A model generated the notes under the pieces. It saw nothing but the letters and a program-made list of their open reading frames with translations, did no database searches and was not told where the DNA came from. A stretch of DNA of 64,000 nucleotides from a virus. Taxonomy: Duplodnaviria > Heunggongvirae > Uroviricota > Caudoviricetes. A program made the translations under genes and the position numbers. Each line of letters opens with the position of its first letter. Within the stretch, counting starts at the first letter, position 1. Location: the IMG/VR virus record IMGVR_UViG_2925939204_000001. The stretch is one strand, 5' to 3'. Below are positions 6,190 to 53,129 of this stretch, piece by piece.

Positions 6190-7170
6190 GTGGCCCAGGA
6201 GTTACAACAATATTTTCTACAGTCAGTGCTCATTAACGATAACAAAGTGCCACGAGACTGGATTTTTACCGCAGTATATGTAGAAAAAACCAGCCTCAAA
6301 GCCCCTTTGCTAAAACTGGAAATTCATGACGCTACCGGCACCGTAATTGATGACTGGAAAGCCAAATACGGTGCATCGCTGGTGGCTGAAATGGGCGATC
6401 CAAACGGTAATGCAGGCACTTTTAAAACAGATTTCTTTGTTACGTCTGCAATGCTGGCTGGTGATGTTGTTACCGTTATTGCTGTCAGTGAAGACGTGCG
6501 CAGGTTTAAGATCCCCTCCCCGCGCACAAATTTACATACCAACAAAACACCAGACGCTATATTCAAGGCATATTCCGGCAAACTTAAAATTACCAGCAGC
6601 GTGCTAAAACGCGCAGTTACATATCATCTGAATGCCGGTGACAAACCGTCAAAAATGCTTTCGGAGATAGCGCGAGACAAAGGTGCATTGTGTTGGGTAT
6701 GTCGGGGGGAATTTAACTTTTACACCCTGGCTGATCTGATGAAGCAAACGCCATCATTTACCTACGAGGGGAATAACCCTAAAGCAGAATACACTTTGTC
6801 CAAAATGCGCCTACTCCAACAGGAACATGCGACAACAGCAAAGAATCAATATCGTTTTGTTGGGTATTCCATGACCGATGGCTACGTCGAATATGGCGAT
6901 AGCTCACTCCCAGTGCGTTATATATCCGACTCTGATATGGAAACTCTTCGCAATATGCAGCTGTCTCTCGTCCCCAAAATGGATATAGAAGTCGCAGGCA
7001 ATCCTGATATAAAACCGGGGATGGTAATAGAGATTATCGTATACCGCTATGACCAGGAAAACCGCATTGATGAATCAATGCCCCGTAAGCTGATAGTAAA
7101 AAATGTTGCGCACTTTGAGGACCGCGTAGGCTACACAACACGAATGATATTGGGAGTGCCTAACAAATGA
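6190..7170 (+). CDS. hypothetical protein, tail/baseplate module (326 aa)
   Basis: Operon context; no motif recognised. Confidence 0.5.
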   Translation: MAQELQQYFLQSVLINDNKVPRDWIFTAVYVEKTSLKAPLLKLEIHDATGTVIDDWKAKYGASLVAEMGDPNGNAGTFKTDFFVTSAMLAGDVVTVIAVSEDVRRFKIPSPRTNLHTNKTPDAIFKAYSGKLKITSSVLKRAVTYHLNAGDKPSKMLSEIARDKGALCWVCRGEFNFYTLADLMKQTPSFTYEGNNPKAEYTLSKMRLLQQEHATTAKNQYRFVGYSMTDGYVEYGDSSLPVRYISDSDMETLRNMQLSLVPKMDIEVAGNPDIKPGMVIEIIVYRYDQENRIDESMPRKLIVKNVAHFEDRVGYTTRMILGVPNK

Positions 7171-7820
7171 AGCGTAGAGCGCAAATTGTTGGAACTGTGC
7201 ACCCGGCAGGGCTTATGCGTGCTCAAGTCCGTGTTTTACCTGACTGGAATGGCGTTCCTGATGACGATCTACCCTGGGCGGAATACCAGTTACCCATCGG
7301 GAACGCTTTTGTACCTACAGTCAAAGGTGACCTGGTCTGGGTAGAGTTTCCTTATTTAGATGTTAACGGTCGAATAGACACCAGACGCCCAATGATAGTT
7401 GGTGCCGCTCAGGATGCACCGGGAGGAATTCCAAACGTTGCACCAGAAGCATCTGGTAAAGGCAACGGCTGGACGCCGCCGGAAGTAGATGGAGCACCTC
7501 CCCGCCCCCAAATCTCAGCAACGAAAGACTTCGTTATTCACCGCAACAATATTCTTGAAGTACGAACTGCTGGTGGCGGCTATGAAATTGCCAATACGGC
7601 AGCAGGCTCAAGGATTGGCATGAATGAGTCCGGGCAGATATATATCATTGGTCCGGCTGATGTAATCGTGAATGCAGGAGGGAGTGTTAACGTCAAATCA
7701 GCCAACAACATCAATGTTAATGGGGAAAATATAGCTGTCACCGCTAACGGAGACATAGCTTTCAAGGCAGGAGGAACCTTTCAGGCCACTGCTGGCAACT
7801 TCGATTTCAAGAAAGGATAG
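7167..7820 (+). CDS. baseplate spike-like protein candidate (217 aa)
   Basis: 4-nt overlap with upstream gene; Gly/Asn-rich repeats (NAGGSVNVKSANNINVNGENIAVTANGDIAF) suggest a beta-helical spike. Confidence 0.45.
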   Translation: MKRRAQIVGTVHPAGLMRAQVRVLPDWNGVPDDDLPWAEYQLPIGNAFVPTVKGDLVWVEFPYLDVNGRIDTRRPMIVGAAQDAPGGIPNVAPEASGKGNGWTPPEVDGAPPRPQISATKDFVIHRNNILEVRTAGGGYEIANTAAGSRIGMNESGQIYIIGPADVIVNAGGSVNVKSANNINVNGENIAVTANGDIAFKAGGTFQATAGNFDFKKG

Positions 7821-7879: not shown

Positions 7880-8785
7880 ATGAGATCAGTCGCTTTCAAA
7901 AATATCTTCATCTATCGTCTTTCACGCGAAGTTAGCTGGGATACTGCAGAAGTAAATGCAGCCCTTAGCAAGTTTGTGTTTACCCCATGCGGTTCTCAGG
8001 ATATGGCTAAAGCTGGTTGGACCTCCGTTCTTGGTGACAACCTCACCCATGAATACCAGGGTTTTCTTCTGATACAGCATAAACGAGAGGAAAAAATCCT
8101 ACCTTCTCAAGTGCTCAAAGAAGAGTTACAGAAAAAAATCCTGACACTTGAAGAAGAGCAAGACAGAAAGCTGAAGAAGACCGAAAAAGATTCGCTGAAG
8201 GATGAAGTGCTTCACTCTCTTCTTCCTCGTGCTTTCACGAGAAAATCACTCGCCAAAATCCTGATCGACCGCAGCAACCATCTGGTATTCGTTGAGGCAA
8301 GCAGCGCCAAAAAGGCAGAGGACCAGCTGGCTTTATTGCGAAAATCGCTCGGCAGCCTGCCTGTCATTCCATTCACACCACGCGAACCGCTGGAAATTAC
8401 AATGACCGAGTGGTTTAAAAACGGCTTCCCTGCCGGATTTACAGCAGGTGAAGACGCCACATTAAAGGGTCTGCTCGATAATGGTGGTGCCGTTCGCTGC
8501 AACAAAGTTGATCTACAGTCCGACGAGATTATGTCTCACATTGAGGCGGGGAAAGTAGCTACGACCGTTGCAATTAACTGGATGGACCGCGCGTCGTTCA
8601 GAGTCAACGATGATATGAGTATCAAAGCCCTGACATTCTGTGATGATCTCTATGACCAGAACGACGATATCGACCGGGAGGATGTAGCACAACGATTTGA
8701 TGCTGATTTCGTGCTCTTTACGGGCGAATTATCTGCACTGTTTAACGCGCTGGTGGAGGCCATTGGCGGTGAAGCAGAACGTTAA
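7880..8785 (+). CDS. rdgC: recombination-associated protein RdgC
   Basis: Near-colinear match to E. coli RdgC ([51 protein letters not shown]-terminal [16 protein letters not shown]...GGEA). Confidence 0.9.
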
Positions 8786-10925
8786 CCTTCGATATGGTTC
8801 AGTTTGCAGTGGAATTGAAGCCGCGAGCATTGCCTGGGAACCGTTGGGTATGCGTCCGGCGTGGTTTGCTGAAATTGAGCCTTTTCCATCTGCCGTTCTT
8901 GCGCACCGCTGGCCTCATATCGCCAACCTTGGCGATATGACAAAACTTGCCAAAAAAGTCCTGGCTGGGGAAATCGAATCCCCTGATGTGCTCGTCGGGG
9001 GAACACCTTGTCAGGCATTCAGTATCGCGGGATTACGTGGTGGGCTTGATGATGAGCGCGGCGCGCTAACTTTGAAGTATGTGGAGCTTGCAAATGCAAT
9101 TGACGACAAACGGTCTGAGTCCTTCCTCAAACCGACAGTTATCGTCTGGGAAAATGTCCCAGGAGTCCTGTCATCGGCAGATAACGCCTTCGGATGTTTC
9201 CTTGCCGGATTGGCTGGAGAAGATGCACCATTTGAACCAGGTGATCGACCTGAATCAGGAAAAAGTAACGCGTTCTGGCGGTGGGATGGCAAAACCGGTT
9301 GCCATGCTCCAAAGTGGCCGCAGTGTGGTTGTATTTATGGACCGCAGCGAAAGGTGGCCTGGAGAATACTTGATGCCCAATACTTCGGAGTGGCACAACG
9401 ACGCCGACGCGTGTTTGTTGTCGCAAGTGCTCGAACAGACCTCGATCCCGCAACGGTACTTTTTGAGTTCGAAGGCGTGCGCCGGGATATTGCGCCGAGC
9501 AGAGGCGAGGGGAAGGAAGTTGCCGGAAATGTTGGAAATGGCATTAAAAGCGGGAGCCATTGGGATAACCCTGTAAATCCTCACCCGACACTTGCCCGAT
9601 CGCACAATACCGGCGGGACGGGTGCAAGCAACCAGGAGATTTTTTCACAGCGCGGAAGTGGGCTTGTCGGTGCTTACCGGATGGTAGCATTTGGTGAGTA
9701 TGCGGATGATGAGGCGGCTTCCACGGTCAAGGCCAGAGATTTTAAGGATGCAACCGACCTGGCTGTTTTTGACAGTGCGAACGTCGGAGTGGCAGTACGT
9801 CGCTTAACGCCTGTCGAGTGCGAACGCCTGCAGGGCTTTCCTGACGGGCACACGTTGATCCCTACGGAAAAGCGTAAAAAAGTTTCTTCAGATGAACTGG
9901 CATACCTTCGCAATCACTATCCAGATTTAAGCGAAGAAGAGGCCGCGATGCTTGCAGCTGACGGACCGCGTTACAAAGCGATCGGCAACAGCATGGCAGT
10001 TCCTGTTATGCAATGGATAGGGTGTCGCATTCTTGCGACCGTAGCGGATAAACAGCAAAAAACAATAAATACCATTACCTACACAAGAAAACTCCGGACT
10101 CCGGATGAATATGAACGCCCAATATTCAAATGGGTAGGCGGTAAATTCTCAGAGTTGCCTACAGTGCTTGAGCATCTACCACACGGCAAGCGGTTAATAG
10201 AACCATTCGTTGGTGGCGGTTCCGTATTTACGAATGCAGGATTTCGCCACAACCTGCTTAATGATATTAACGGTGACCTGATTAACTTCTATCAGACATT
10301 GCAGCGAGAGGGACATTCGCTCGTCACGCTGGCATATAGTTTTTTCAAAAATTACAACAACGCTGACGCTTACCTCGAAGTGCGCGAGGCATTTAACAGA
10401 GGAAAGTATGACCAGCTACATCATGCTGCCGCCTTTTTGTACCTTAATCGGCACTGTTTTAATGGCGTAACGCGGTACAACCAAAATGGCGAGTTCAACG
10501 TGGGGTATGGCAAATACAAAGCGCCCTACTTCCCACATGCAGAGATGGAGGCATTTTTGGCTGATGACGTACTCAAAAACACGTCCTTTGTATCAGGTGA
10601 CTTTGCTGGCGTCATCGAGGCGGCTGGTGAAGGCGATGTGATTTTTTGCGATCCGCCGTATGAACCGCTGCCGGATACAGAAGGGTTTACCAGTTATTCA
10701 GGAAATAGCTTCCGTTTCGACGAACAGAAACGGCTGGTATCTCTATTGGTGGAAGCCCACCAGCGCGGCGCTAAGGTAGTGATAACAAATAGTGGTGCGC
10801 CAAACATCCGTGAACTATATGAACGAAACGGGTTTAAAGTACATCATATGGCAGCCAGACGGTCGGTGTCCTGCAAGGCGTCAACACGTGTAGTTGCTAA
10901 CGATATAATTGCAATAATGAAGTAA
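8697..10925 (+). CDS. dmt: bifunctional DNA methyltransferase: N-terminal C5-cytosine MTase fused to C-terminal Dam-like N6-adenine MTase (P1 Dmt-like)
   Basis: C5 motifs [23 protein letters not shown] (PCQ), VWENVPG (ENV); Dam-like KWVGGK and FCDPPYEP (DPPY). Start uncertain: in-frame GTG at 8769 or TTG 8763 more likely than 8697/8700, which overlap rdgC by ~86 nt. Confidence 0.85.
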
Positions 10926-10957
10926 AAAACGCCGCAGTAGCGGCGTTTACTTTTTTA
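10926..10957. terminator. bidirectional rho-independent terminator (AACGCCGC-AGTA-GCGGCGTT flanked by A- and T-runs)
   Basis: Perfect 8-bp stem with TTTTTT after and AAAAA before; sits between convergent dmt and glnS. Confidence 0.7.
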
Positions 10958-10973
10958 TGTGGCGAAATACCTA

Positions 10974-12635
10974 TTAACCTAACTTCGCCCAGGTATCACG
11001 CAGCCCAACGGTGCGGTTAAATACCGGTTTTTCCGCCGTAGAATGGCGGCTGTCGAGGCAGAAATAACCTTCACGCTCAAACTGGAATGCTTTACCCGCT
11101 ACCGCTTCTTTCAGCGACGGTTCAGCAAAACCCTGTTTGATCACCAGCGATTCCGGGTTAATCACCGACAGGAAATCATCCGCAGCACCTGGGTTCGGCA
11201 CGCTGAACAGACGATCGTACAGGCGGATTTCAACCGGCAGCGCATGTGCCGCGCTCACCCAGTGAATAACGCCTTTCACTTTACGACCATCTGCCGGATC
11301 TTTGCTTAAGGTGTCGGCGTCATAAGTACAGAAGATGGTGGTGATATTGCCTTCGGCATCTTTCTCCACGCGTTCAGCCTTAATGACGTAAGCATTACGC
11401 AGACGCACTTCTTTACCCAGCACCAGACGTTTGTACTGCTTGTTAGCTTCTTCGCGGAAATCGGCGCGGTCGATCCAAATCTCACCGCTAAACGGCACCT
11501 GACGGCTACCCATTTCCGGTTTGTTTGGATGGTTCGGCATGGTGACCATTTCGCCTTCGCCCTGGTAGTTTTCGATAACCAGTTTCACCGGATCGATAAC
11601 CGCCATTGCGCGCGGCGCATTTTCGTTGAGATCTTCACGGATGCAGGATTCCAGCGACGCCATCTCAATGGTGTTGTCCTGCTTGGTCACGCCGATGCGT
11701 TTGCAGAACTCACGAATAGAAGCCGCAGTGTAACCACGACGACGCAGACCGGAAATGGTCGGCATACGCGGGTCATCCCAGCCTTCAACGTGCTTGTCGG
11801 TCACCAGCAGGTTCAGCTTACGCTTGGACATCACAGTGTATTCCAGATTCAGGCGCGAAAATTCGTACTGGCGCGGGTGAACAGGAATGGTGATGTTGTC
11901 CAGTACCCAGTCATACAGACGACGGTTGTCCTGGAACTCAAGCGTACACAGAGAGTGCGTAATACCTTCCAGCGCATCGCTGATGCAGTGGGTGAAGTCG
12001 TACATCGGGTAGATGCACCACTTGTTGCCAGTCTGGTGATGTTCAGCAAACTTAATGCGGTACAGCACCGGGTCGCGCATCACGATAAACGGCGAAGCCA
12101 TGTCGATTTTCGCACGCAGGCAGGCTTTACCTTCTTCAAAACCACCGGCACGCATTTTTTCGAACAGCGCCAGGTTCTCTTCAACGCTGCGGTCGCGGTA
12201 CGGGCTGTTTTTACCCGGCTGCGTCAGGGTGCCGCGGTATTCGCGGATCTGTTCCGGCGTCAGTTCGTCAACATACGCCAGGCCTTTGTTGATCAGTTCA
12301 ACAGCATAGGCATGGAGTTTGTCAAAATAATCGGAGGAGTAACGGATGTTGCCAGACCAGTGAAAACCTAACCATTCAACGTCGTTTTTAATCGACTCGA
12401 CGTACTCGATATCTTCTTTTACCGGGTTAGTGTCGTCGAAACGCAGGTTGCACTGGCCTTTATAGTCCTGGGCGATCCCGAAGTTCAGGCAGATAGATTT
12501 CGCATGACCAATATGCAGATAGCCATTCGGTTCCGGCGGGAAACGGGTATGTACTGTGGTGTGCTTACCACTGGCCAGATCTTCATCGATGATCTGACGA
12601 ATAAAGTTAGTCGGGCGGGCTTCTGCCTCACTCAT
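10974..12635 (-). CDS. glnS: glutaminyl-tRNA synthetase (host-like, full length 553 aa)
   Basis: Essentially colinear with E. coli GlnRS from [20 protein letters not shown], incl. class I HIGH motif (PNGYLHIGH) and VMSKR (KMSKS-type) motif. Confidence 0.95.
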
Positions 12636-12802
12636 TGTGGATTCCTCAAAGCGTAAACAACGTATAACAGCGTATGATCTTATAAGCCGAATAGGCTGAC
12701 AACCACTAGTTGATTAGAAATTACTTTCTATCGTTATTTCAATAATGAGCTTTTTCATGAAGCCCACTTTTGCGCATAAGTAAATTAATGACAAATGGTA
12801 CA

Positions 12803-12868
12803 CAATTGGAACCAAAAAGGATGTAAAGGTGCACCAAATTAGTGGTGTATTGGTGCACCTTTGGTTCA
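12803..12868. repeat. palindromic element AAAGGTGCACCAA-N12-TTGGTGCACCTTT with flanking TTGGAACC/GGTTCAA arms
   Basis: Perfect 13-bp inverted repeat (12825-12837 / 12850-12862) just downstream of the parA/RHH operon; candidate centromere or operator. Confidence 0.4.
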
Positions 12869-12903
12869 AGACTTTTTAAGTTCTAAAACCAACCTGAAAG
12901 ACT

Positions 12904-13191
12904 TTATTTTGCTTCCTCAGACTCCGCTAACATGAGGATAGCATGGCGGATCATATTCAATTTGCTGCGATTATGCTTTTTGCTCAACGCATCAAGTACC
13001 TGGTACTCGTATTCATTGAAACCAACACGAATAGATTTAAAATCACGTGGAGCGTCCTTATCGAGCACTTTGTTGTCTTCTGGTTGCTCACCCGGCACCA
13101 AATCAGCCTTACTTGCAAAATCCTCAATTCGGCGTTCAAGATCGGGGTCTTTTACTTCGGGGGCTTTTACCGATTTACGAGGCTTAATCAC
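12904..13191 (-). CDS. ParG/ParB-like ribbon-helix-helix centromere-binding protein (95 aa)
   Basis: Small basic protein with C-terminal RHH-like segment (SIRVGFNEYEYQVLDALSKKHNRSKLNMIRHAILML); overlaps parA stop by 8 nt. Confidence 0.65.
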   Translation of the reverse strand: MIKPRKSVKAPEVKDPDLERRIEDFASKADLVPGEQPEDNKVLDKDAPRDFKSIRVGFNEYEYQVLDALSKKHNRSKLNMIRHAILMLAESEEAK

Positions 13192-13825
13192 TTAATAACT
13201 CCTTAACCAACATCTGGATTTCACCTTTAGCTTTCCCGTTGTCCATCTCAACAACGCCCTTCCCTTCAGCCATGCAATCGCGGTAAACCTTACGATCACG
13301 AATGATGGTTTTCAGCAACTTCAGTTGCGGATATTCAGCCAGGTACTCTTTGGCCTCATTGGTTTCATTCACAACCGGATTGGATGGGGCCATTGTTAAG
13401 ACTGCGAACGCCTTAATGCTAGGATTAGGCATCAGGTCCAAAGCCTCTTCAAACACTTCAACAAAGTGTGCCAGCGTGTCTAAATCTGGTTGAGATGGTC
13501 TGAATGGGACCAACACAATATCTGCAGCGGTTATGCCTGTACGCATCTCTTTGCTATCGCGCCCGGCTGTATCAACAACAACAAATTCATAACGCTTATC
13601 CAGATCGAGAAGTGTTTCTCGAATATTACCAAACTTCTGGACACAATGAATTACAGGAGAAACCTCTGCCGTGTTACGGTCAGCTGCCCAGCGGGCAGCT
13701 GTTCCTTGCTTGTCTGCATCTAGTAACACTACATCCTTATTTGCGCGGGCAAGCTCCGCACAGATGTTTACGCTTGTGGTTGATTTTCCACAGCCACCTT
13801 TTTGGCTGACTACCAATATAATCAT
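13184..13825 (-). CDS. parA: ParA-type partition ATPase (small, type Ib)
   Basis: Deviant Walker A VVSQKGGCGKSTTS; likely start is the ATG giving MIILVVSQKGG with GAGGAA SD (track start 13855 is an upstream TTG). Confidence 0.85.
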   Translation of the reverse strand: MIILVVSQKGGCGKSTTSVNICAELARANKDVVLLDADKQGTAARWAADRNTAEVSPVIHCVQKFGNIRETLLDLDKRYEFVVVDTAGRDSKEMRTGITAADIVLVPFRPSQPDLDTLAHFVEVFEEALDLMPNPSIKAFAVLTMAPSNPVVNETNEAKEYLAEYPQLKLLKTIIRDRKVYRDCMAEGKGVVEMDNGKAKGEIQMLVKELLSD

Positions 13826-14112
13826 ATCCGTTCCTCGGTGTGATTTTGGTATCAAAACGGTTCCAGATAAGAGCCTTTTTGATGCGGGACAGGCTCTATA
13901 ATGGAGTCATGAATGTTTGGCAAAGTATAACATCAATCAGACCAAATACACCTTATATTGCATCCTATTTAACACGAAATCAGCCCTAAATTGGAACCAG
14001 ATACAAAATTGCACCATAACAGCACCTAAATGGTGCCAGTTCAACACTAATTAGACACCATTAAGGCACAAAAAGGGCTGCAATTTGCAGCCTTAAACCA
14101 GCACATCTTCTG

Positions 14113-14457
14113 TCAATCAGGTAGAGAGTCAGCCAGATTGCGCGCCGACGCGCTTTTGGCAACAACTTGCTCCTTCACTGGCTCAATGGAGGCAGGGCGC
14201 TCCTCAACCGCAGCTGGTAGTTCCAGGAAGGATGCCAGCATTTTTCGGATCAGCTCCGGGTTATTGTCTTCGGTCAGCAGGGAAGCCAGTAATCCTGGAA
14301 GCCTGCTATCGACTTCTCCCAGCGCAAGCCCTGCCAACAATGCAGTTCTTGCCATATCGCTATGTTTTTTTATCTTCTCGCTCGCCGCCTTTTCATTGGC
14401 ATAAGCCTCTGGGCGAAGATAAATCATCACTTTCTTACGTTCCTGAGACATGGACAT
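14113..14457 (-). CDS. parR: ParR/StbB-like centromere-binding protein
   Basis: RTALLAGLALGEVDSRLPGLLASLLTED resembles R1 ParR (RAALTAGLALYRQDPRTPFLLCELLTKE); directly downstream of parM. Confidence 0.7.
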   Translation of the reverse strand: MSMSQERKKVMIYLRPEAYANEKAASEKIKKHSDMARTALLAGLALGEVDSRLPGLLASLLTEDNNPELIRKMLASFLELPAAVEERPASIEPVKEQVVAKSASARNLADSLPD

Positions 14458-14463
14458 ACCTCG

Positions 14464-15420
14464 TTAACCGATTGCTTTCAGGCCATGAACAAGAGCAAGT
14501 TGCGGGTCATCCGCCACGAAGAAACGGTCATCACGAATATTAACTTGCTCGCGAATTGCATCTGCCACCAGCGGTGCGCCACCACCGATCACCATGACAT
14601 GCGTATATCCTTTAAAGTCGCCAATCACATCAAGAACGCGGGTACGCAGACGGTCAATGCTTGCGGCAATGGCCTTTTTCACATCACCAATCGCTGATGG
14701 GTCATTGATATTGTCGTTCAGATAATCTTCATCGTGGCGGTTAATAATGAGCTGATCAACATTGTAATTTGACGTTTCGGTATTGGCTCTGGCAAGTGCT
14801 TGCCTTACTTCCCTGGTAACCAGAGAGACGCCAAGATTCGAATCGCCAAAAACACGGGAAACTGCCGTCATTTGCCCGGCGACCATTGAAACATCAAGGG
14901 TAGTTCCACCCAAATCGACGATAAGAATAGAATGGGCAGGGTTCAGATTGTCGCACAGGCCAATTCCTGCCGGAATAGACTCCGGTCGTACCGTAACTTT
15001 CTTAATCGTGAACACATTGCCTTTATTCAGCGTGACGGGGCGCATAAGGCTGGCTTTCTTGCGCTCGATGTTATCGAGATTGTATTGCGCGTCGTCGTCG
15101 TAAAACTCCGCCAGAGGCAGCGTGACCACAATTTCTACTTCCTGCGGCTCAATGCCACTTGTCAGCAGGGCATGGTGAACAGCCAGGACGTTAAGCGGGC
15201 TGTATTGCCATTCCACGTTATTCGTCGGCAGAACATCTGGCGAGATCAAATCATACGAATACTTTTCGTCGTCAATGACATAGTTAAACGGCTTGCCAGC
15301 ACCAAATGTTGCTGACCATCCGCGCTTAAAGCTGTTAGGGCTGATGTGAGTGCGAGTTTCCCCGTCGTGCTCCCACAGCATTTTGATATTGGTTGAACCA
15401 TCATCGATAAAAATGCGCAT
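14464..15420 (-). CDS. parM: ParM/StbA actin-like segregation ATPase
   Basis: N-terminal MRIFIDDGSTNIK and IVDLGGTTLD actin-fold phosphate motifs; start taken at internal ATG with GGAG SD. Confidence 0.85.
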   Translation of the reverse strand: MRIFIDDGSTNIKMLWEHDGETRTHISPNSFKRGWSATFGAGKPFNYVIDDEKYSYDLISPDVLPTNNVEWQYSPLNVLAVHHALLTSGIEPQEVEIVVTLPLAEFYDDDAQYNLDNIERKKASLMRPVTLNKGNVFTIKKVTVRPESIPAGIGLCDNLNPAHSILIVDLGGTTLDVSMVAGQMTAVSRVFGDSNLGVSLVTREVRQALARANTETSNYNVDQLIINRHDEDYLNDNINDPSAIGDVKKAIAASIDRLRTRVLDVIGDFKGYTHVMVIGGGAPLVADAIREQVNIRDDRFFVADDPQLALVHGLKAIG

Positions 15421-15445
15421 CTTCTTGCTCCACTTCTGAGACACA

Positions 15446-15601
15446 TTTGAGAATCAAAATGTAATTTTAAAAGAGAAGCACCCAAAAATCCACACCAAAC
15501 GAGATAAAGAAGAGCGATTGTTGAGTTTATTTTGAGAATATCTTGATCACCCACCGAATGATGGTCTGACAGTGAGATTTATTTGAGAACGAATTGAGAA
15601 T
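15446..15601. repeat. parC-like centromere: six TTGAGAA(T/C)-type repeats, paired 10-11 bp apart
   Basis: Copies at 15447, 15522, 15532, 15573, 15583, 15594 immediately upstream of parM. Confidence 0.5.
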
Positions 15602-15686
15602 GCAAAAATATTCCGAAATTTAACTCTCCGTTTGAATGACGAAATAACAAAGTGATGACAATAGGAGGATAACCAGGAGGTGAAGA

Positions 15687-15971
15687 ATGAGCGCAATAGC
15701 CACCAGCGACACCCTTTGTTCTGGTCACGGAGGATTTCCGCCGCGACTGGTAGCTGAAACCGTTCCCTGGTTCACCGTTAACGGTAAGCCAGTTGTTGTA
15801 GATGGTGCCATGTTTCCCAGTCACACTGACGGTAACAGTGCACATCCAGGGGCAGCTGTATCGACGCGAGTATGGTTTTCGATAGGTGGAAAGGGAGTTG
15901 TCTGTGTAGGCGATCCGCTTTCTTGTGGTTCTGTTATCGCCAACGGCGAGGATATTTTTCAGGTTGCATAA
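15687..15971 (+). CDS. PAAR-like (spike-tip-like) small protein (94 aa)
   Basis: Repeated NGKPVVVDGA / GGKGVVCVGDPLSCG pattern typical of PAAR folds; very strong SD (AGGAGG); stop overlaps next start (TAATG). Confidence 0.45.
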   Translation: MSAIATSDTLCSGHGGFPPRLVAETVPWFTVNGKPVVVDGAMFPSHTDGNSAHPGAAVSTRVWFSIGGKGVVCVGDPLSCGSVIANGEDIFQVA

Positions 15972-16777
15972 TGCTTGATTCAATAGGTGAAGTTAAAGCC
16001 TTCAAAATTCTGTCAGATGCCGGTATCTCTACACCAGAATCTATAACCATAAGCCGGGCAGCTTCTGTAAAAGCCTCATCGCTCGCCAGCGCCATACAGG
16101 GAATAGTTCACGCCGATAAAACCTATCCTGATTCTGTTTCGGCCTGGACTACTCAATTGCTTGGCTTTTCTGAACAGCTCAATGAGGCCAGCAAAGCGTC
16201 TTCATCACTGGCTGATTCTCTTTCCCCATACACCAAGCCATCAGAGCTGTTACAGATGAAGATTGGCTGGGAATGCTACGCAAAAGGTAACGAGCTGACC
16301 CCCATACCTGCTTTCGCCCTTGTTGAGGGAATGGGGAATGTTTCCATTCCGCAATCTCTAACGGACGCATTGACGGCGCTAAAACTTGATGCTCTGAAAA
16401 CCGCCATGAACGCCATTAACGCAAAAATTGAAGCTGCCGGAAGTGCTGGTGGTGGTGATAGCAATGGTGGACAGGGTGGTGCTGGGGGCGCTCAGGCTCC
16501 AGTCATTACTCAGGATGAAATTGATGCTTTACGGGAAGCAGTGACAGCCGCCGAAGCTTTACTCTCCGAAATTAACTCAGCAAGTGAGAGTGTCGTAGCC
16601 CTTACAGGTCGCATTAAAACGTCAACCACTCAGGCAACCAAAGGTTTAGAGAACGCTGTCGCCATCACGTTAACTGGTTCTCTACTGGATGATGCAGTAA
16701 TGAGTCCGGCACTCAGTTTAATCATGCCACAAGGCGTTATCGATGCGCTCCAAAAGAACACCAAAAAGGAACCATAG
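15971..16777 (+). CDS. hypothetical protein with Gly-rich linker (268 aa)
   Basis: Translationally coupled to PAAR-like gene; no motif recognised. Confidence 0.5.
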   Translation: MLDSIGEVKAFKILSDAGISTPESITISRAASVKASSLASAIQGIVHADKTYPDSVSAWTTQLLGFSEQLNEASKASSSLADSLSPYTKPSELLQMKIGWECYAKGNELTPIPAFALVEGMGNVSIPQSLTDALTALKLDALKTAMNAINAKIEAAGSAGGGDSNGGQGGAGGAQAPVITQDEIDALREAVTAAEALLSEINSASESVVALTGRIKTSTTQATKGLENAVAITLTGSLLDDAVMSPALSLIMPQGVIDALQKNTKKEP

Positions 16778-16832
16778 CAACACCACTTAGGCACACAAAA
16801 GGATGTAAATTGGCACATGTTTAACACCAAAA

Positions 16833-17306
16833 ATGAACCTGAAGAGGATGGTTTTGAAAAAGATAATTTTGATTGTAATTGCGCTTTTAGCCATTTCTGG
16901 AATTTACCGAACAACGACGGCAGTTATCGAACACATCAGGTATGTCCGATCGCTTGAAGACTCAAAATCACAACTGGAAAGCACGAACAACACGCTTTCT
17001 GCCGCATTACAGTTAAGTGAGAACGCTCGCTCAGCCATGCTGACCGAAAACGAAAGAATTAAAGCACTGGAAAAGGAGTACCAGCGCAAAACAGCAGAAC
17101 TGAATGCCAACCTAATCAAACAACGAGAGGAAAGCCAGAATGAAATCACTCGCCTTGAAAATGCGTTACGCCGTGCTGGGATTAACGATGTGCGTGTGCC
17201 TGATGACGTTATCAGGATGCAGCGGGAACGGGCAAAAGCCATCAACCAGCGTGCCAGTGAAAATTACCGTAGAAGCCACCAGCAAGCCGCAGGCAAATCT
17301 GATTGA
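16833..17306 (+). CDS. i-spanin-like (Rz-like) protein
   Basis: N-terminal TM anchor (ILIVIALLAISGIY) followed by long coiled-coil periplasmic domain. Confidence 0.5.
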   Translation: MNLKRMVLKKIILIVIALLAISGIYRTTTAVIEHIRYVRSLEDSKSQLESTNNTLSAALQLSENARSAMLTENERIKALEKEYQRKTAELNANLIKQREESQNEITRLENALRRAGINDVRVPDDVIRMQRERAKAINQRASENYRRSHQQAAGKSD

Positions 17307-17466
17307 TTACTCCCCTTGTTTAGTGCCAGAGGACACGCCAGTGCTGTTAAACAAGTATCCGACATACGCTGAACAGTTATTCAGCACGATCGACGAATGC
17401 AACCAACGAAACGCACTGAATAACCAAAGAAACAGGGAGATTTGGGAAGGGAAGGGGCGGCAGTGA
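17140..17466 (+). CDS. o-spanin-like (Rz1-like) lipoprotein, overlapping i-spanin in +1 frame
   Basis: Signal peptide with lipobox LSGC; gene starts inside and extends beyond the i-spanin gene. Confidence 0.5.
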   Translation: MKSLALKMRYAVLGLTMCVCLMTLSGCSGNGQKPSTSVPVKITVEATSKPQANLIDYSPCLVPEDTPVLLNKYPTYAEQLFSTIDECNQRNALNNQRNREIWEGKGRQ

Positions 17467-17493
17467 GCTTCACAAAATCTATATAGCTATTTT

Positions 17494-17505
17494 ATGTTAG
17501 AAAAA
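17494..17505 (+). promoter_or_regulatory. operator-like motif ATGTTAGAAAAA
   Basis: Member of dispersed TGTGTTAGAAAA family; ~55 bp upstream of the locus-A promoter. Confidence 0.4.
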
Positions 17506-17557
17506 TAATTTGAATTTTCGAACATAAACAATAAAATAAATCATCAAAAATTTGATG

Positions 17558-17586
17558 TTGATCTTCCATGTTTTCAGGCTTATATT
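17558..17586 (+). promoter_or_regulatory. sigma70-type promoter TTGATC-N17-TATATT of immunity locus A
   Basis: Near-consensus -35/-10 with 17-nt spacer; identical promoter at 51207-51235. Confidence 0.6.
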
Positions 17587-17592
17587 CACGCC

Positions 17593-17833
17593 GTTGCAGC
17601 AAATTCTGCGACCGGGTTTAGCAGCCTGAATGTACATGCGGACAACCGCAGATATCCGATATTGCGGTATTTTTGTGTCCGTAAAACCATGTTACGCCCG
17701 AATTATGGTGGGGCGTGATGGGGAGGCTTCGGCCTGCTGGTTTCATGTACGCCAGTCTGCTAACCCCGTCACGTCCTGCCACCCGTTTAGCAGCGGGTAG
17801 CAGGTTGTTAAACCTGTACATGAGGCCGTAACT
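17593..17833 (+). ncRNA. c4-like antisense RNA / leader region of immI-like locus A
   Basis: Sites a1/b1 (17617-17638), complementary b'/a' (17744-17763) and a2/b2 (17786-17822) overlapping the SD of the next ORF; all six sites co-vary in paralogue B. Confidence 0.5.
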
Positions 17834-18049
17834 ATGGTTAATGCCAATCCTTGCGCACGCCCGGAATTTATCTGGCGCTTTTATTCCTGCACAAAACACA
17901 CCTACATCAGCGTAATGGCAGCTACTGAGGCTGAAGCGCGTTCATTTCTTCCTACAGATCCATGCATTTTTGCCGCTCGCTTTAAACTCGATGCTCTGGA
18001 CGTTTTGACCTACTGGAACCGCCCAATGAACTGCGTGGAGGTGCATTAA
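17834..18049 (+). CDS. Icd-like small protein (71 aa)
   Basis: SD overlapped by b2 site; N-terminus MVNANPCARPEFIWRF conserved with paralogue at 51483; stop overlaps ant start. Confidence 0.5.
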   Translation: MVNANPCARPEFIWRFYSCTKHTYISVMAATEAEARSFLPTDPCIFAARFKLDALDVLTYWNRPMNCVEVH

Positions 18050-19047
18050 TGGACGCAGTAACTATCAATAACAAACCATTCCCGACTCTCGAATATAAAA
18101 ATCAGCGTGTAGTGACCTTTGAGATGATTGATGAGGTGCACGAACGTGTTGATGGGGCAGCCAGGGGAACATTTAAGCGAAACAGAAGTCGTTTCATTGA
18201 AGGGGTGGATACTTATGTTATTGATTATTCTGAAAAGGGCTTTTTAAGCCCATTTGGAATTGATGTCCCCCCGCGCGGTTTGCGCGTGTTCACTGAGTCC
18301 GGCTATCTGATGATTGTTAAGTCATTCAATGACGATCTGGCCTGGCAAGTGCAACGTGAGCTGGTAAACAGCTATTTTCGTATTAAGCAATTAATACCGG
18401 AGCACTCACCGCTAAAATCAAAAGCCGAAATCCTGGCCGAAATGGCGCAAATGCATCTTGAGCATGAACGCCGGATCAACGCCGTAAATGCCCAGGTAGC
18501 CGAGGTATCAGCACAAGTATCGATGGTCGCTGAAACACTCGAGCAAATCAAGAAAGGCAATATTCCGGAAGGCTACATTGGCTACCGCCAGCTGGCGGCG
18601 AAATGTGGCCTGACTGAAGCAAAATGTCGCAACCTGGTCAACGCTTACCGGATTCCCACCGATACGCATGAGTTTTTAACTCCCGATGGTTTGCTTGCGC
18701 GACGCTCCATTGTGGCCCTGGCCCCCTTCCGGAAAGCCTTTAAGCAGGTGATGTCGGAGGCAGAACCACGCAATAAACGCTGGTATCATCCAAAGATGGG
18801 GATGTTTCAGGCAATCCACCATCCTGTGCCTGAAAGCCCAAAGGATAATCTGTCACTACATACCGTCAGAGAGAAGATCAGGACTGGATACGCAACAGTG
18901 TGTCGTCGTTCTTCCTGGCCTGAAGGTATATGGGTGTGGCCCGAAGGTGGATCACGAAAGCACTGGCGCACTATCCGGGACGGGAAAATCCATGCTATTG
19001 ATTTAGCGCCAGAGGATATTGTTGCTACGGACTGGATTGTTAGTTAA
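18049..19047 (+). CDS. antirepressor (Ant)-like protein with C-terminal DUF2829-like segment (332 aa)
   Basis: N-terminal Bro-N/ORF6N-like region; central block KKGNIPEGYIGYRQLAAKCGLTEAKCRNLVNAYRIPTDTHEFLTP shared with 51707 paralogue; C-terminus ATVCRRSSW...LAPEDIVATDWIVS. Confidence 0.6.
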   Translation: MDAVTINNKPFPTLEYKNQRVVTFEMIDEVHERVDGAARGTFKRNRSRFIEGVDTYVIDYSEKGFLSPFGIDVPPRGLRVFTESGYLMIVKSFNDDLAWQVQRELVNSYFRIKQLIPEHSPLKSKAEILAEMAQMHLEHERRINAVNAQVAEVSAQVSMVAETLEQIKKGNIPEGYIGYRQLAAKCGLTEAKCRNLVNAYRIPTDTHEFLTPDGLLARRSIVALAPFRKAFKQVMSEAEPRNKRWYHPKMGMFQAIHHPVPESPKDNLSLHTVREKIRTGYATVCRRSSWPEGIWVWPEGGSRKHWRTIRDGKIHAIDLAPEDIVATDWIVS

Positions 19048-19082: not shown

Positions 19083-19487
19083 CTAAAAATCTGTTCGCTG
19101 TCGCCATGCGTTTTTTAACTCAGGAATATCCGCCATTTCAATTAACTTGCGAAGTCCAGCACTGACTTTCCCATTGCCAACCATAGCAAGCCAATCTCTT
19201 ACTGCTTTCGGCATGTAGAGCGTTGCAGTTACCGGCTCTTCAACCCTGGCAGGACATCCGCATACAGGCCATTTAACTGATTCCATAACTTCGGATGCCG
19301 GGGTGAGGGCGGGGACATTGAGTATATCTCTACCAGAAAACTGGATAACGATCCGTTCAGCGAGCGAGAGTATCTCACTTTCGGCAAGAATTGATGCCAA
19401 CTGCGCCTCAACAAGAAAGCGACTTGTTGTGTTCAGAGAGTGGCTCTTAGCGCCATTTTTATACGAAACAAAGATTCGATACGCCAT
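19083..19487 (-). CDS. hypothetical small regulator candidate (134 aa)
   Basis: Operator-like motif lies 12-25 nt upstream of its start; contains KWPVCGCP cysteine pair. Confidence 0.5.
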   Translation of the reverse strand: MAYRIFVSYKNGAKSHSLNTTSRFLVEAQLASILAESEILSLAERIVIQFSGRDILNVPALTPASEVMESVKWPVCGCPARVEEPVTATLYMPKAVRDWLAMVGNGKVSAGLRKLIEMADIPELKNAWRQRTDF

Positions 19488-40643: not shown

Positions 40644-40970
40644 ATGTTTGCAGATTATGAAAATCTGGCTGTAGTAGTCATAACATCCCTACTAAGTGGA
40701 ACCGGCGTATTCCTTCTCGGAGTTAGAGACGGGCGCATTTCTGCGTCCCTGCTCAATCTTGCGAGTGAATTGTTTACTGCGGTAACAGCCGGGCTTGCGG
40801 GGTATGGGGTGGCGGTTAGCCAAGAATGGCCTGAAGGTATCATTTTCTGCGTTGTTCTGATTGCCAGTAACAACGGTAGTGAAATTTTACAGGGCTTGAA
40901 GTCCAGAGCTAGTAACGTCTTGAATCTCTTAAGCGTAATAGCGAATGGGGGAAAAGGTGGAGAGAAATAA
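40644..40970 (+). CDS. small three-TM membrane protein, holin-like (P1 LydA-like?)
   Basis: 108 aa with three hydrophobic segments; first gene of operon. Confidence 0.4.
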   Translation: MFADYENLAVVVITSLLSGTGVFLLGVRDGRISASLLNLASELFTAVTAGLAGYGVAVSQEWPEGIIFCVVLIASNNGSEILQGLKSRASNVLNLLSVIANGGKGGEK

Positions 40971-51206: not shown

Positions 51207-51235
51207 GTTGATCTTCCATGTTTTCAGGCTTATAT
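51207..51235 (+). promoter_or_regulatory. sigma70-type promoter TTGATC-N17-TATATT of immunity locus B
   Basis: Identical to locus A promoter. Confidence 0.6.
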
Positions 51236-51241
51236 TCATGC

Positions 51242-51482
51242 CGTCGTAGCAAATTCTGCGACCAGGTTTGACAGCCTGAATGTTAGTGCGGACAACCGCA
51301 GATTTCCGATATTGCGGTATTTTTGTGTCCGTAAACCGCGTTACGCCCGAATTATGGTGGGGCGTGATGGGGAGGCTTCGGCCTGCTGGTTTCACTAACG
51401 CCAGTCTGTCAACCCTGTCACGTCCTGCCACCTGTTTGACAGCGGGTAGCAGGTTGTTAAACCTGTTAGTGAGGCCGTAACT
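51242..51482 (+). ncRNA. c4-like antisense RNA / leader region of immI-like locus B
   Basis: Sites a1/b1 (51266-51287), b'/a' (51393-51411), a2/b2 (51434-51470) with compensatory differences from locus A. Confidence 0.5.
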
Positions 51483-52646: not shown

Positions 52647-53129
52647 TGCCTCATTAGTTGAGGTTGCTGCGTCTCCGACTGGTAACAGAGCGGTATTGCG
52701 TGGTTCGCCAGCAGGCCAGCGATAGCCAGACACTCTTGATGTTGGGAATGCGCGAATATTAACCGCATCCCCCTGGTTCCCACCCAGGACAAGCAGATCG
52801 CCATTGGCGCGGCGTCCGACAACGAAGCCTACGTGCCCACCGCCTACGCGGGTAAATACAACGATACATCCGTATGCCGGTGTATCTAATTTCTCGCCCC
52901 AATCCAGATAGGATTTTGCCGACTCAAATCTTGTTGAGCGGATGCCTACACGTTCCAGCATTGCACCGACAAATGCTGCGCACCACGGCGTTTCATCGTC
53001 TTTAATTCCGCCGCGCTTGATGTCGCGCCAGAACTGAACGATTTCAGGGTTGTGTTTAGCGCCTTTTATTTCAGTCAGGCCAATGTGCTTACGGGCTTCA
53101 ATTAGCCAGCGAGGTTCAATGTTTGCCAT
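52644..53129 (-). CDS. NlpC/P60-CHAP-like putative cell-wall hydrolase (161 aa)
   Basis: WCAAFVGAML (Cys) ... GCIVVFTRVGGGHVGFVVG (His) ... LGGNQGDAV arrangement typical of Cys-His peptidoglycan peptidases. Confidence 0.55.
   Translation of the reverse strand: MANIEPRWLIEARKHIGLTEIKGAKHNPEIVQFWRDIKRGGIKDDETPWCAAFVGAMLERVGIRSTRFESAKSYLDWGEKLDTPAYGCIVVFTRVGGGHVGFVVGRRANGDLLVLGGNQGDAVNIRAFPTSRVSGYRWPAGEPRNTALLPVGDAATSTNEA

What the first reader, a model, noticed from the sequence alone, without database searches (positions are those of the whole stretch)
15687..17466. PAAR-like protein operon next to an overlapping spanin pair, away from the tail genes
A strongly expressed-looking (AGGAGG SD) 94-aa PAAR-like ORF is translationally coupled to a 268-aa protein with a Gly-rich linker. 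It is followed by an i-spanin-like gene with an embedded, out-of-frame lipoprotein o-spanin-like gene (lipobox LSGC). PAAR proteins normally cap baseplate or T6SS spikes; here the gene is far from the baseplate block and next to lysis-type genes, so its role is unclear.
Basis: partly seen in the sequence, partly recalled or inferred. Interest (0 to 1): 0.45.

Follow-up and report, generated by a model that had tools for sequence, protein, structure and literature searches.

The report
P1-type tail-tip genes plus spanins
These four genes are the counterpart, in a D6-like phage-plasmid, of phage P1's upfC-upfB-ppfA-mlp cassette (tail spike tip, a "tripod" protein attached to it, and a two-part outer-membrane lysis pair), so the finding is real but already explained.

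Summary
A 94-aa PAAR ORF (15687-15971, AGGAGG 7 nt upstream) overlaps by one base (TAATG) a 268-aa ORF with a Gly-rich linker. An inner-membrane spanin (16833-17306) and a lipoprotein spanin (17140-17466, lipobox LSGC) follow. The pair is overlapped, not embedded.

The window is a D6-like P1-family phage-plasmid. P1 has the same cassette in the same order: upfC-upfB-ppfA-mlp. The PAAR protein is 57% identical to P1 UpfC (PDB 9vyi). The 268-aa protein is a full-length homologue of UpfB. A 2026 cryo-EM study places UpfC on the gp5 spike and assigns UpfB to a "tripod" on it. ppfA/mlp are P1's predicted, untested spanins.

The apparent isolation from tail genes comes from a 7.9-kb accessory block. 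It lies between the spike gene (7167-7820) and the PAAR gene. In a Vibrio relative, hub, spike, PAAR and UpfB genes are contiguous.

A late-promoter-like motif lies 24 nt before the PAAR start. It recurs before capsid, tail, holin and endolysin genes.

Verdict: already known; low interest.

The parts
15642..15662 (+). Late-promoter-like element AAATAACAAAG-TGAT-GACAAT: an 11-bp box, a 4-nt spacer and a -10-like hexamer. It ends 24 nt before the PAAR ATG.
   Evidence: The pattern AAATMACAMAS-N5-ANNNT has 6 exact hits in the window against 0.04 expected. All are on the + strand, 24-49 nt before an ORF: PAAR, major capsid, pmgB/sit, R, lydA and ddrB. One-mismatch copies lie before gene 7, the portal gene and the peptidoglycan hydrolase gene. 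The same box lies before the PAAR gene in D6, L007 and L006. Its function is inferred, not shown.
15674..15679 (+). Shine-Dalgarno sequence AGGAGG, 7 nt before the PAAR start codon.
   Evidence: Read directly from the sequence. CAGGAGG is conserved at the same place in L006 and L007.
15687..15971 (+). PAAR / gp5.4-type spike-tip protein, 94 aa; orthologue of P1 UpfC and D6 orf57.
   Evidence: 57% identical to P1 UpfC over all 94 residues. PDB 9vyi_A 'UpfC' E=1.4e-35 and T4 gp5.4 (5iv5) E=1.4e-5. PF05488 27.2 bits and phrog_281 8.4e-29. His14, His46, His53 and Cys80 are invariant in six homologues.
15971..16777 (+). UpfB-family protein, 268 aa, all-helical with two domains joined by a Gly-rich linker; orthologue of the P1 'tripod' protein UpfB and D6 orf56.
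   Evidence: phrog_1559 5.6e-110 over its full length. 27% identity to P1 UpfB, E=1e-22, collinear from end to end. AlphaFold2 pLDDT 80.8, all alpha, residues 160-173 disordered. No Pfam family and no PDB fold match.
16833..17306 (+). i-spanin, Rz-like; positional counterpart of P1 PpfA and D6 orf55. Alternative starts at 16848 and 16854.
   Evidence: phrog_214 6.6e-16 and phrog_89 2.6e-7; P1 PpfA hits the same two families. Membrane segment at residues 6-24. AlphaFold2 model: helix 2-114, a break, then helix 124-154, pLDDT 87.8.
17140..17466 (+). o-spanin, an Rz1-like outer-membrane lipoprotein; homologue of P1 Mlp and D6 orf54. It lies in the +1 frame with a 167-nt overlap (overlapped architecture).
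   Evidence: Lipobox LSGC with Cys27, Ser at +2, an 82-aa mature part with 7 Pro and 2 further Cys. phrog_456 1.4e-5 and phrog_30284 6.3e-4. 31% identity to P1 Mlp, E=1e-8. Pfam O_Spanin_T7 scores only 16.3 bits against a cut-off of 25.
6190..7170 (+). Baseplate hub gene, homologue of P1 gene 6; part of the same puncturing device.
   Evidence: PDB 9vzk 'Gp6' E=7.6e-72.
7167..7820 (+). Central spike gene, homologue of P1 gene 5; the predicted partner that the PAAR protein caps.
   Evidence: PDB 9vzk 'Gp5' E=1.1e-54.
7880..15444 (.). Accessory and plasmid-maintenance block that separates the spike gene from the PAAR gene. It holds rdgC, a 742-aa methylase ORF, glnS, a parA-like gene, stbB and stbA/parM.
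   Evidence: ORFs and annotation of identical or near-identical records. In Vibrio alginolyticus plasmid NZ_CP119337 the hub, spike, PAAR and UpfB genes are contiguous.

Best explanation
The region is the D6-lineage version of phage P1's upfC-upfB-ppfA-mlp cassette. It encodes two virion tail-tip proteins followed by a lysis pair.

Inferred by homology to P1:
- One copy of the 94-aa PAAR protein caps the blunt end of the trimeric beta-helical spike. The spike is the gp5 homologue encoded at 7167-7820.
- The helical 268-aa UpfB homologue assembles into a tripod on the faces of that tip. Together they form the distal end of the contractile tail's membrane-puncturing device.

Inferred for the two downstream genes:
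- They encode a two-component spanin: an inner-membrane protein with a long helical periplasmic domain, and an outer-membrane lipoprotein.
- They would bridge the periplasm and disrupt the outer membrane at the last step of lysis.

Inferred for expression:
- The four genes probably form one late transcription unit. It would be driven by a late-promoter-like element at 15642-15662.
- That element is shared with the capsid, tail, holin and endolysin operons.

The PAAR gene looks stranded only because a 7.9-kb block was inserted between the spike gene and the PAAR gene. The block carries recombination, methylase, glnS and partition genes. The ancestral order is hub, spike, tip, tripod, then lysis genes.
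For: Identity of the element:
- 100% identical to E. coli plasmid NZ_CP020051 and 99% to phage D6.
- The D6 GenBank record already notes 'similar to P1 gene upfC' and 'similar to P1 gene upfB' for these genes.

Same cassette in P1:
- P1 has the same four genes in the same order and orientation.
- PAAR protein against UpfC: 57% identity, E=1e-42.
- 268-aa protein against UpfB: 27% identity over the full length, E=1e-22.
- o-spanin against Mlp: 31% identity, E=1e-8.
- The i-spanin and PpfA hit the same Rz-like PHROG families.

Structures and published work:
- Solved UpfC (9vyi) and T4 gp5.4 match the PAAR protein.
- P1 gp5 and gp6 (9vzk) match the window's spike and hub proteins.
- P1 cryo-EM describes a trimeric gp5 plus monomeric UpfC spike complex, with a UpfB tripod anchored on it (PMC12810830; also PMC13611949).
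- ppfA and mlp are listed as P1's spanin genes (PMC9025707).

Conservation of the cassette:
- It is kept in distant relatives whose UpfB homologues are 38-42% identical to the window protein (L006, L007).
- In a Vibrio plasmid the hub, spike, PAAR and UpfB genes are contiguous, followed by endolysin and holin genes.

Promoter motif.
Against: - No experiment exists on D6 or this plasmid.
- The P1 tripod assignment rests on an AlphaFold3 model fitted into medium-resolution density. The two 2026 papers also differ on the copy number: three trimers in one, three copies in the other.
- UpfB identity to the window protein is only 27%.
- The window i-spanin shows no significant pairwise similarity to PpfA (E=0.24).
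- P1's spanins have never been tested.
- CRISPRi knock-down of upfC, upfB, ppfA or mlp in P1 gave no plating defect. The parts are therefore dispensable in the laboratory and their contribution is unknown.
- The late-promoter motif was derived partly from the sites it then recovers.
- No terminator was found after the o-spanin gene, and no transcript data exist.
Confidence: 0.85

Rival explanations
1. The PAAR and 268-aa gene pair is a non-virion cargo module, that is, a T6SS-style PAAR with an effector or adaptor, or a 'moron' as the PHROG category suggests. It would sit beside lysis genes because it acts on the host envelope, not on the tail.
For: phrog_281 is filed under 'moron, auxiliary metabolic gene and host takeover'. 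NCBIfam's T6SS PAAR model gives a weak hit at E=2e-8. The pair lies next to plasmid-partition genes, not baseplate genes.
Against: - The T6SS PAAR model scores 34 bits against a cut-off of 124.
- The closest solved relatives are phage spike tips.
- The orthologue was seen on the P1 spike by cryo-EM.
- The genes follow the hub and spike genes directly in a Vibrio relative.
- A late-promoter-like box precedes the PAAR gene.
- No T6SS genes are annotated in the D6 genome or appeared in the parts of the window examined.
Confidence: 0.03
2. The membrane protein and lipoprotein pair is not a spanin. It would be an envelope module with another role, for example superinfection exclusion or lysis timing, as the original P1 annotation of mlp hinted.
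For: - P1 mlp was first annotated as 'membrane lipoprotein precursor, possibly involved in regulation of lysis'.
- No function has been verified.
- The pair is not next to the holin gene (40644) or the peptidoglycan hydrolase gene (52647-53129).
- The Pfam and NCBIfam spanin models fall below their cut-offs.
- Knock-down in P1 gave no plating defect.
Against: - Both proteins match Rz-like spanin PHROG families.
- All topological requirements are met: an N-terminal membrane segment, long periplasmic helices, a lipobox with a non-Asp residue at +2, a small Pro-containing mature lipoprotein, and +1-frame overlapped genes.
- Spanins are dispensable in shaken laboratory cultures (PMC9025707).
Confidence: 0.1
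3. The conserved adjacency of tail-tip genes and lysis genes reflects a functional partnership. For example, the tripod and the spanins would both act on the outer membrane and need co-regulation. It would not be inherited gene order alone.
For: Lysis genes follow the PAAR-UpfB pair in three lineages. They are spanins in P1 and in D6-like elements, and endolysin plus holin in a Vibrio plasmid.
Against: - The neighbouring lysis genes differ in kind between lineages. That fits a general 'structural genes then lysis genes' late layout better than a specific partnership.
- In Photobacterium plasmid L009 the UpfB gene is followed by a 552-aa ORF that was not characterised, in the position where the capsid gene lies in the window; no lysis gene is annotated there.
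- No physical or genetic interaction is known.
Confidence: 0.04

Closest known systems
Phage P1 UpfC (PDB 9vyi and 9vzk) and T4 gp5.4: PAAR-type tips of the central spike
   Same: Same length (94 aa). 57% identity to UpfC, with a full-length alignment. His14, His46, His53 and Cys80 are invariant. A gp5-type spike partner is encoded in the same genome.
   Different: The D6-lineage sequence has not been examined experimentally. The gene is separated from the spike gene by 7.9 kb, as it also is in P1 (8.6 kb, with different inserted genes).
Phage P1 UpfB, the 'tripod' on the spike tip (PMC12810830)
   Same: Full-length collinear homology in the same PHROG family (phrog_1559). It is all-helical, with two domains and a variable Gly/Ala/Pro-rich linker. 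The gene lies immediately after the PAAR gene.
   Different: Only 27% identity. The start is coupled by a TAATG overlap here, against an 8-nt gap in P1 if P1's conserved Met20 is the true start. Even in P1 the function and copy number are unsettled.
P1 PpfA/Mlp and the two-component spanins lambda Rz/Rz1 and P2 LysB/LysC
   Same: A type II inner-membrane protein with helical periplasmic domains, plus a small outer-membrane lipoprotein encoded in the +1 frame. The architecture is overlapped, as in P2 and P1. As in P1, the pair is unlinked from the holin and endolysin genes.
   Different: The i-spanin has diverged beyond pairwise detection from PpfA. The o-spanin is annotated with a late start in the D6 record and is absent from the gene table held here for the RefSeq plasmid, which PLSDB distributes and which is incomplete. 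The last codons of the o-spanin gene come from a different neighbouring module than in D6.

Membership tests
PAAR / gp5.4-type spike tip | Matches the Pfam PAAR_motif model at its gathering score | tested here: met
   PF05488 scores 27.2 bits against a cut-off of 27.0, so it only just passes. phrog_281 gives 8.4e-29.
PAAR / gp5.4-type spike tip | Sequence homology to a structurally solved spike-tip protein | tested here: met
   9vyi_A UpfC E=1.4e-35; T4 gp5.4 (5iv5, 4ku0) E about 1e-5.
PAAR / gp5.4-type spike tip | Conserved His/Cys set near the apex. That this is the three-His, one-Cys metal site of PAAR proteins is from my own recollection of the PAAR structures, not from a tool. | tested here: met
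   His14, His46, His53 and Cys80 are invariant in six homologues sharing 33-77% identity. Metal binding itself was not tested.
PAAR / gp5.4-type spike tip | A beta-helical spike partner encoded by the same element | tested here: met
   Window 7167-7820 matches P1 Gp5 in 9vzk at E=1.1e-54.
PAAR / gp5.4-type spike tip | Physically located on the spike in the virion | not testable with these tools
   Shown only for the P1 orthologue (PMC12810830).
T6SS PAAR protein | Reaches the NCBIfam equivalog score and sits in a T6SS context | tested here: not met
   NF033420 scores 34.2 bits against a cut-off of 124. The window is a phage-plasmid.
UpfB / phrog_1559 tail-tip tripod | Full-length homology to P1 UpfB | tested here: met
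   phrog_1559 5.6e-110 over residues 1-265. BLASTP 27% identity, E=1e-22, covering residues 1-262.
UpfB / phrog_1559 tail-tip tripod | Encoded directly downstream of the PAAR gene | tested here: met
   True in the window, D6, P1, L006, L007 and L010. In L009 two ORFs intervene.
UpfB / phrog_1559 tail-tip tripod | Forms oligomers that bind the PAAR tip | not testable with these tools
   Only monomer prediction is available here. Even the P1 assignment rests on an AlphaFold3 fit.
Two-component spanin | i-spanin: a single N-terminal membrane segment and a helical periplasmic domain | tested here: met
   Hydrophobic segment at residues 6-24. AlphaFold2 helices 2-114 and 124-154. phrog_214 6.6e-16.
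Two-component spanin | o-spanin: a lipobox with Cys, no Asp at +2, and a short mature periplasmic part | tested here: met
   LSGC with Cys27, Ser28, 82-aa mature part, 7 Pro, 2 further Cys. phrog_456 1.4e-5.
Two-component spanin | Curated spanin models (Pfam, NCBIfam) at their cut-offs | tested here: not met
   O_Spanin_T7 scores 16.3 bits against 25, and LysC 11.8 against 27. P2_Rz1 scores 12.9 against 27. These models cover other spanin families.
Two-component spanin | Embedded, overlapped or separated gene pair | tested here: met
   Overlapped: 167-nt overlap in the +1 frame, with the o-spanin gene ending 160 nt after the i-spanin stop. The definition is taken from PMC6139136.
Two-component spanin | Located in a lysis cassette with holin and endolysin genes | tested here: not met
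   The holin lydA homologue is at 40644-40967 and the peptidoglycan hydrolase at 52647-53129. P1 shows the same scattering.
Two-component spanin | Disrupts the outer membrane at lysis | not testable with these tools
   Untested even for P1 PpfA/Mlp.

The most novel reading that the evidence does not exclude
The UpfB tripod could be one example of a wider, unrecognised class of helical proteins that decorate PAAR tips of contractile tails and help them cross the envelope. Three observations point that way.
- UpfB is a small family confined so far to P1/D6-type phage-plasmids of enterobacteria and Vibrionaceae.
- Its predicted fold resembles DUF7217 proteins of several phages: Pectobacterium phage Wc4, Serratia phage vB_SmaA_3M and Escherichia phage FEC14. 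Foldseek gives probability 1.0, but E is only about 2e-3 and TM-score 0.4-0.55.
- T4 gp5.1 has been modelled on gp5.4 (PMC13611949).

The conserved placement next to lysis genes might then reflect shared late control of envelope-active proteins.
Probability: 0.12. Interest if true: 0.45.

Novelty: already known. Interest (0 to 1): 0.12.

Why it matters
It matters little beyond annotation.

- In D6-like phage-plasmids, which are common in E. coli and Salmonella (111 plasmid records carry at least 80% of the queried stretch 15400-17700), these genes can be labelled more precisely. Suitable labels are spike tip, tip-associated tripod protein, i-spanin and o-spanin, in place of 'hypothetical protein'.
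- The collinear order hub, spike, tip, tripod, and the late-promoter motif, give a cleaner map of the D6-type late regulon.
- The biological role of the tripod is still open, but that question belongs to P1 research and is not raised by this window.

Tried and rejected
- P1-type late promoter. I searched RTGACT-N5-TANNNT, derived from P1's LP23 and LP26. It gave 3 hits against 0.67 expected, none near the PAAR gene. I replaced it with the D6-type box found upstream of late genes.
- Generic sigma-70 and terminator scan of 15300-17800. The counts were at chance level. The only terminator-like hits lie inside the PAAR ORF and are probably spurious.
- Fold search of the UpfB-like model against PDB. 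No match reached E<=0.001; only generic long-helix proteins (BAR domains, PilJ) appeared.
- Pfam scan of 23 family members and 10 distant representatives. No family matched, and none hit DUF7217.
- DUF7217 lead. I fetched the first 50 kb of Salmonella phage 38 (a Kuttervirus) and scanned ten ORFs in and near its baseplate region. No DUF7217 gene turned up, so I abandoned the lead.
- Papers not held in the library. The D6 genome paper (Gilcrease and Casjens 2018) and the P1 genome paper could not be read. What they say about these genes is known to me only through the GenBank notes.
- T6SS-effector reading. Rejected on the NCBIfam score and the phage context.
Full report
**What is there**

- The 94-aa ORF at 15687-15971 has AGGAGG at 15674-15679, 7 nt before its ATG.
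- Its TAA stop shares one base with the ATG of a 268-aa ORF (15971-16777, TAATG). That protein has a Gly-rich stretch at about residues 156-175.
- After a 55-nt gap comes a 157-aa ORF (16833-17306). It has a single strongly hydrophobic segment at residues 6-24.
- In its +1 frame lies a 108-aa ORF (17140-17466) with the lipobox LSGC (Cys27).
- The lipoprotein gene overlaps the first by 167 nt and continues 160 nt past its stop. The pair is therefore 'overlapped', not 'embedded', in the sense of Kongari et al. (PMC6139136).

**Profile evidence**

- The 94-aa protein passes Pfam PAAR_motif, though only just (27.2 against 27.0 bits). It hits phrog_281 at 8.4e-29.
- The 268-aa protein hits only phrog_1559 (unknown function) at 5.6e-110.
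- The third protein hits Rz-like spanin families phrog_214 (6.6e-16) and phrog_89.
- The fourth hits Rz-like spanin families phrog_456 (1.4e-5) and phrog_30284.
- Curated Pfam and NCBIfam spanin models stay below their cut-offs.
- A single-sequence AlphaFold2 model of the third protein is one long helix (residues 2-114), a break, and a second helix (124-154), with pLDDT 87.8. That is the expected i-spanin shape.

**What the element is**

- The stretch 15400-17700 is 100% identical to E. coli plasmid NZ_CP020051 (91 kb).
- 89% of that stretch (15400-17457) is 99% identical to phage D6. 111 plasmid records carry at least 80% of it.
- D6 is a P1-family plasmid prophage. Its GenBank record already says orf57 is 'similar to P1 gene upfC' and orf56 'similar to P1 gene upfB'. 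The two spanin ORFs are 'hypothetical' there.

**The P1 counterpart**

P1 carries upfC (94 aa), upfB, ppfA and mlp in the same order and orientation, with ppfA and mlp overlapping. Pairwise comparisons give:
- PAAR protein against UpfC: 57% identity over all 94 residues, E=1e-42.
- 268-aa protein against UpfB: 27% identity, collinear, E=1e-22.
- o-spanin against Mlp: 31% identity, E=1e-8.
- i-spanin against PpfA: not significant. Both nevertheless hit phrog_89 and phrog_214.

The PDB holds UpfC itself (9vyi_A, E=1.4e-35) and T4 gp5.4 (E=1.4e-5). His14, His46, His53 and Cys80 are invariant across six homologues.

**What is published**

- A 2026 cryo-EM study of P1 (PMC12810830) built UpfC as the monomeric tip on the trimeric gp5 spike and called it strikingly similar to T4 gp5/gp5.4.
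- The same study assigned a medium-resolution density on that tip to a UpfB 'tripod', using an AlphaFold3 model.
- A second 2026 paper repeats this and notes that the tripod's role is unclear (PMC13611949). The two papers differ on copy number: three trimers in one, three copies in the other.
- ppfA and mlp are cited as P1's spanin genes. They were predicted from sequence features, never tested, and lie in an operon unlinked to the other lysis genes (PMC9025707).
- Genome-wide CRISPRi scored upfC, upfB, ppfA and mlp as non-essential for plating (PMC10695390).

**Why the PAAR gene looks stranded**

- In the window, the hub (6190-7170; PDB 9vzk Gp6, 7.6e-72) and the spike (7167-7820; Gp5, 1.1e-54) lie on the same strand 7.9 kb upstream.
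- Between them and the PAAR gene lie rdgC, a 742-aa methylase ORF, glnS, a parA-like gene, stbB and stbA/parM.
- P1 has an 8.6-kb gap at the same place, filled with different genes.
- In Vibrio alginolyticus plasmid NZ_CP119337, the hub, spike, PAAR and UpfB homologues are contiguous. An endolysin and a holin gene follow.
- The simplest reading is an ancestral order of hub, spike, tip, tripod, then lysis genes, split in the enterobacterial lineages by accessory and plasmid-maintenance insertions.
- The window's other tail and lysis genes were placed by tblastn with D6 proteins. Capsid is at 19646, sheath at 21837, tube and baseplate genes at 23.5-26.7 kb, and the tape-measure, wedge and fibre genes at 28-40 kb. 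The holin is at 40644 and the peptidoglycan hydrolase at 52647-53129.

**Conservation of the cassette**

- The UpfB family is small. There are 39 clusters in the 5.8-billion-sequence set.
- There are 75 representatives among 1.84 billion. Of those, the ten distant ones tested all fell in phrog_1559 and hit no Pfam family.
- In a JGI metagenome contig (UpfB 38% identical) and an Enterobacter hormaechei contig (42%), the order PAAR, UpfB, i-spanin, o-spanin is kept (identities). The PAAR and UpfB genes again share a base at their junction.
- Distant members sit on 80-140-kb non-mobilizable Vibrio and Photobacterium plasmids.

**Expression**

- Upstream of the PAAR gene is AAATAACAAAG-TGAT-GACAAT (15642-15662).
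- The pattern AAATMACAMAS-N5-ANNNT has six exact matches in 64 kb against 0.04 expected. All are on the + strand, 24-49 nt before an ORF: PAAR, major capsid, pmgB (then sit), R (then the fibre genes), lydA and ddrB.
- One-mismatch copies with a -10-like hexamer precede gene 7, the portal gene and the peptidoglycan hydrolase gene.
- The geometry (box, 4 nt, -10 hexamer) matches that of annotated P1 late promoters.
- I derived the pattern partly from four of these sites, so only the remaining sites are independent support. Activity is inferred. It fits late, virion-and-lysis timing for the cassette.

**The 268-aa protein itself**

- AlphaFold2 with 23 homologues gives an all-helical model (pLDDT 80.8, pTM 0.72). 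It has an N-domain (about residues 4-158), a disordered linker (160-173) and a C-domain with a 59-residue helix.
- The linker varies in length and composition between homologues. The motif LLQMKIGWECxxKGN is nearly invariant.
- No PDB fold match was found.
- BFVD gives weak matches to DUF7217 proteins of several phages. I could not follow these up.

**Verdict**

- The puzzle (a PAAR gene away from the baseplate and next to spanins) is explained by homology to the P1 cassette and by genome mosaicism.
- The finding is already known in kind and in this lineage.
- The modest additions are annotation-level spanin calls for D6-like elements, the collinearity argument and the late-promoter motif.

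Noticed in passing
window 4569, 15642, 19576, 28214, 36050, 40591, 45711, 47159 (+ strand) and 53175 (- strand): A recurring box AAAT(C/A)ACA..., then 4 nt, then a -10-like hexamer. It lies 24-49 nt before the ORF at the six exact sites, and a short distance before the gene at the three one-mismatch sites. The nine units are gene 7, PAAR, capsid, pmgB/sit, R/fibres, lydA, ddrB, portal and peptidoglycan hydrolase. It is probably the D6-lineage late (Lpa-type) promoter. The exact pattern has 6 hits against 0.04 expected.
   Followed up: partly
window 17580-17786 and 51230-51435: There are two complete immI-type modules, each with the c4 antisense RNA and its a1/b1 targets by Rfam (RF01695, RF03163). 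The first is followed by icd and an ORF6N antirepressor-like gene (17834-19047). It lies directly after the o-spanin gene. D6 has orf53 at that place, followed by orf52; orf52 is retained in the window at 19098-19487.
   Followed up: partly
window 17457/17458: Identity to D6 stops abruptly 9 nt before the o-spanin stop codon. The last residues therefore differ (...EGKGRQ* here, ...EGKGDQGS* in D6). A mosaic junction sits inside the end of the gene.
   Followed up: yes
L003 (P1 NC_005856) 8769-8828, minus strand: P1 upfB is annotated from an ATG 19 codons upstream of the family's invariant N-terminus (MLD/MLE). That conserved Met has a GGAG that overlaps the upfC stop codon and lies 6 nt before the ATG. 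The annotated 281-aa UpfB is probably 262 aa.
   Followed up: partly
window 15437-15606: Three copies of a 23-nt unit (two of them 11 nt apart), each carrying TGAGA/TTGAGAA motifs, lie in the intergenic region upstream of the divergent stbA/parM gene. They may be the partition (parC-type) site. They share the 242-bp intergenic region with the PAAR promoter.
   Followed up: no
L006 6762-7392: In a metagenomic relative the i-spanin ORF is only 99 aa and the o-spanin gene is separated from it by 28 nt. Sequence resembling the C-terminal i-spanin motif (PDDVIRMQRERA) appears in another frame. This suggests a frameshift, or a shift from overlapped to separated architecture.
   Followed up: no
window 10974-12635 (- strand) and 8697-10925 (+ strand): The phage-plasmid carries a full-length glutaminyl-tRNA synthetase gene (glnS), as D6 does. 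It also has a single 742-aa methylase ORF where the D6 record annotates two separate methylase genes. No tRNA genes were found in the window.
   Followed up: no
model of window 15971-16777: Foldseek against BFVD gives probability 1.0 (E=2e-3 to 2e-2, TM-score 0.4-0.55) to DUF7217 proteins of Pectobacterium phage Wc4 and Serratia phage vB_SmaA_3M; Escherichia phage FEC14 matches more weakly (probability 0.95, E=0.29). No link was seen at sequence level. This could be real remote homology or generic helical similarity.
   Followed up: partly
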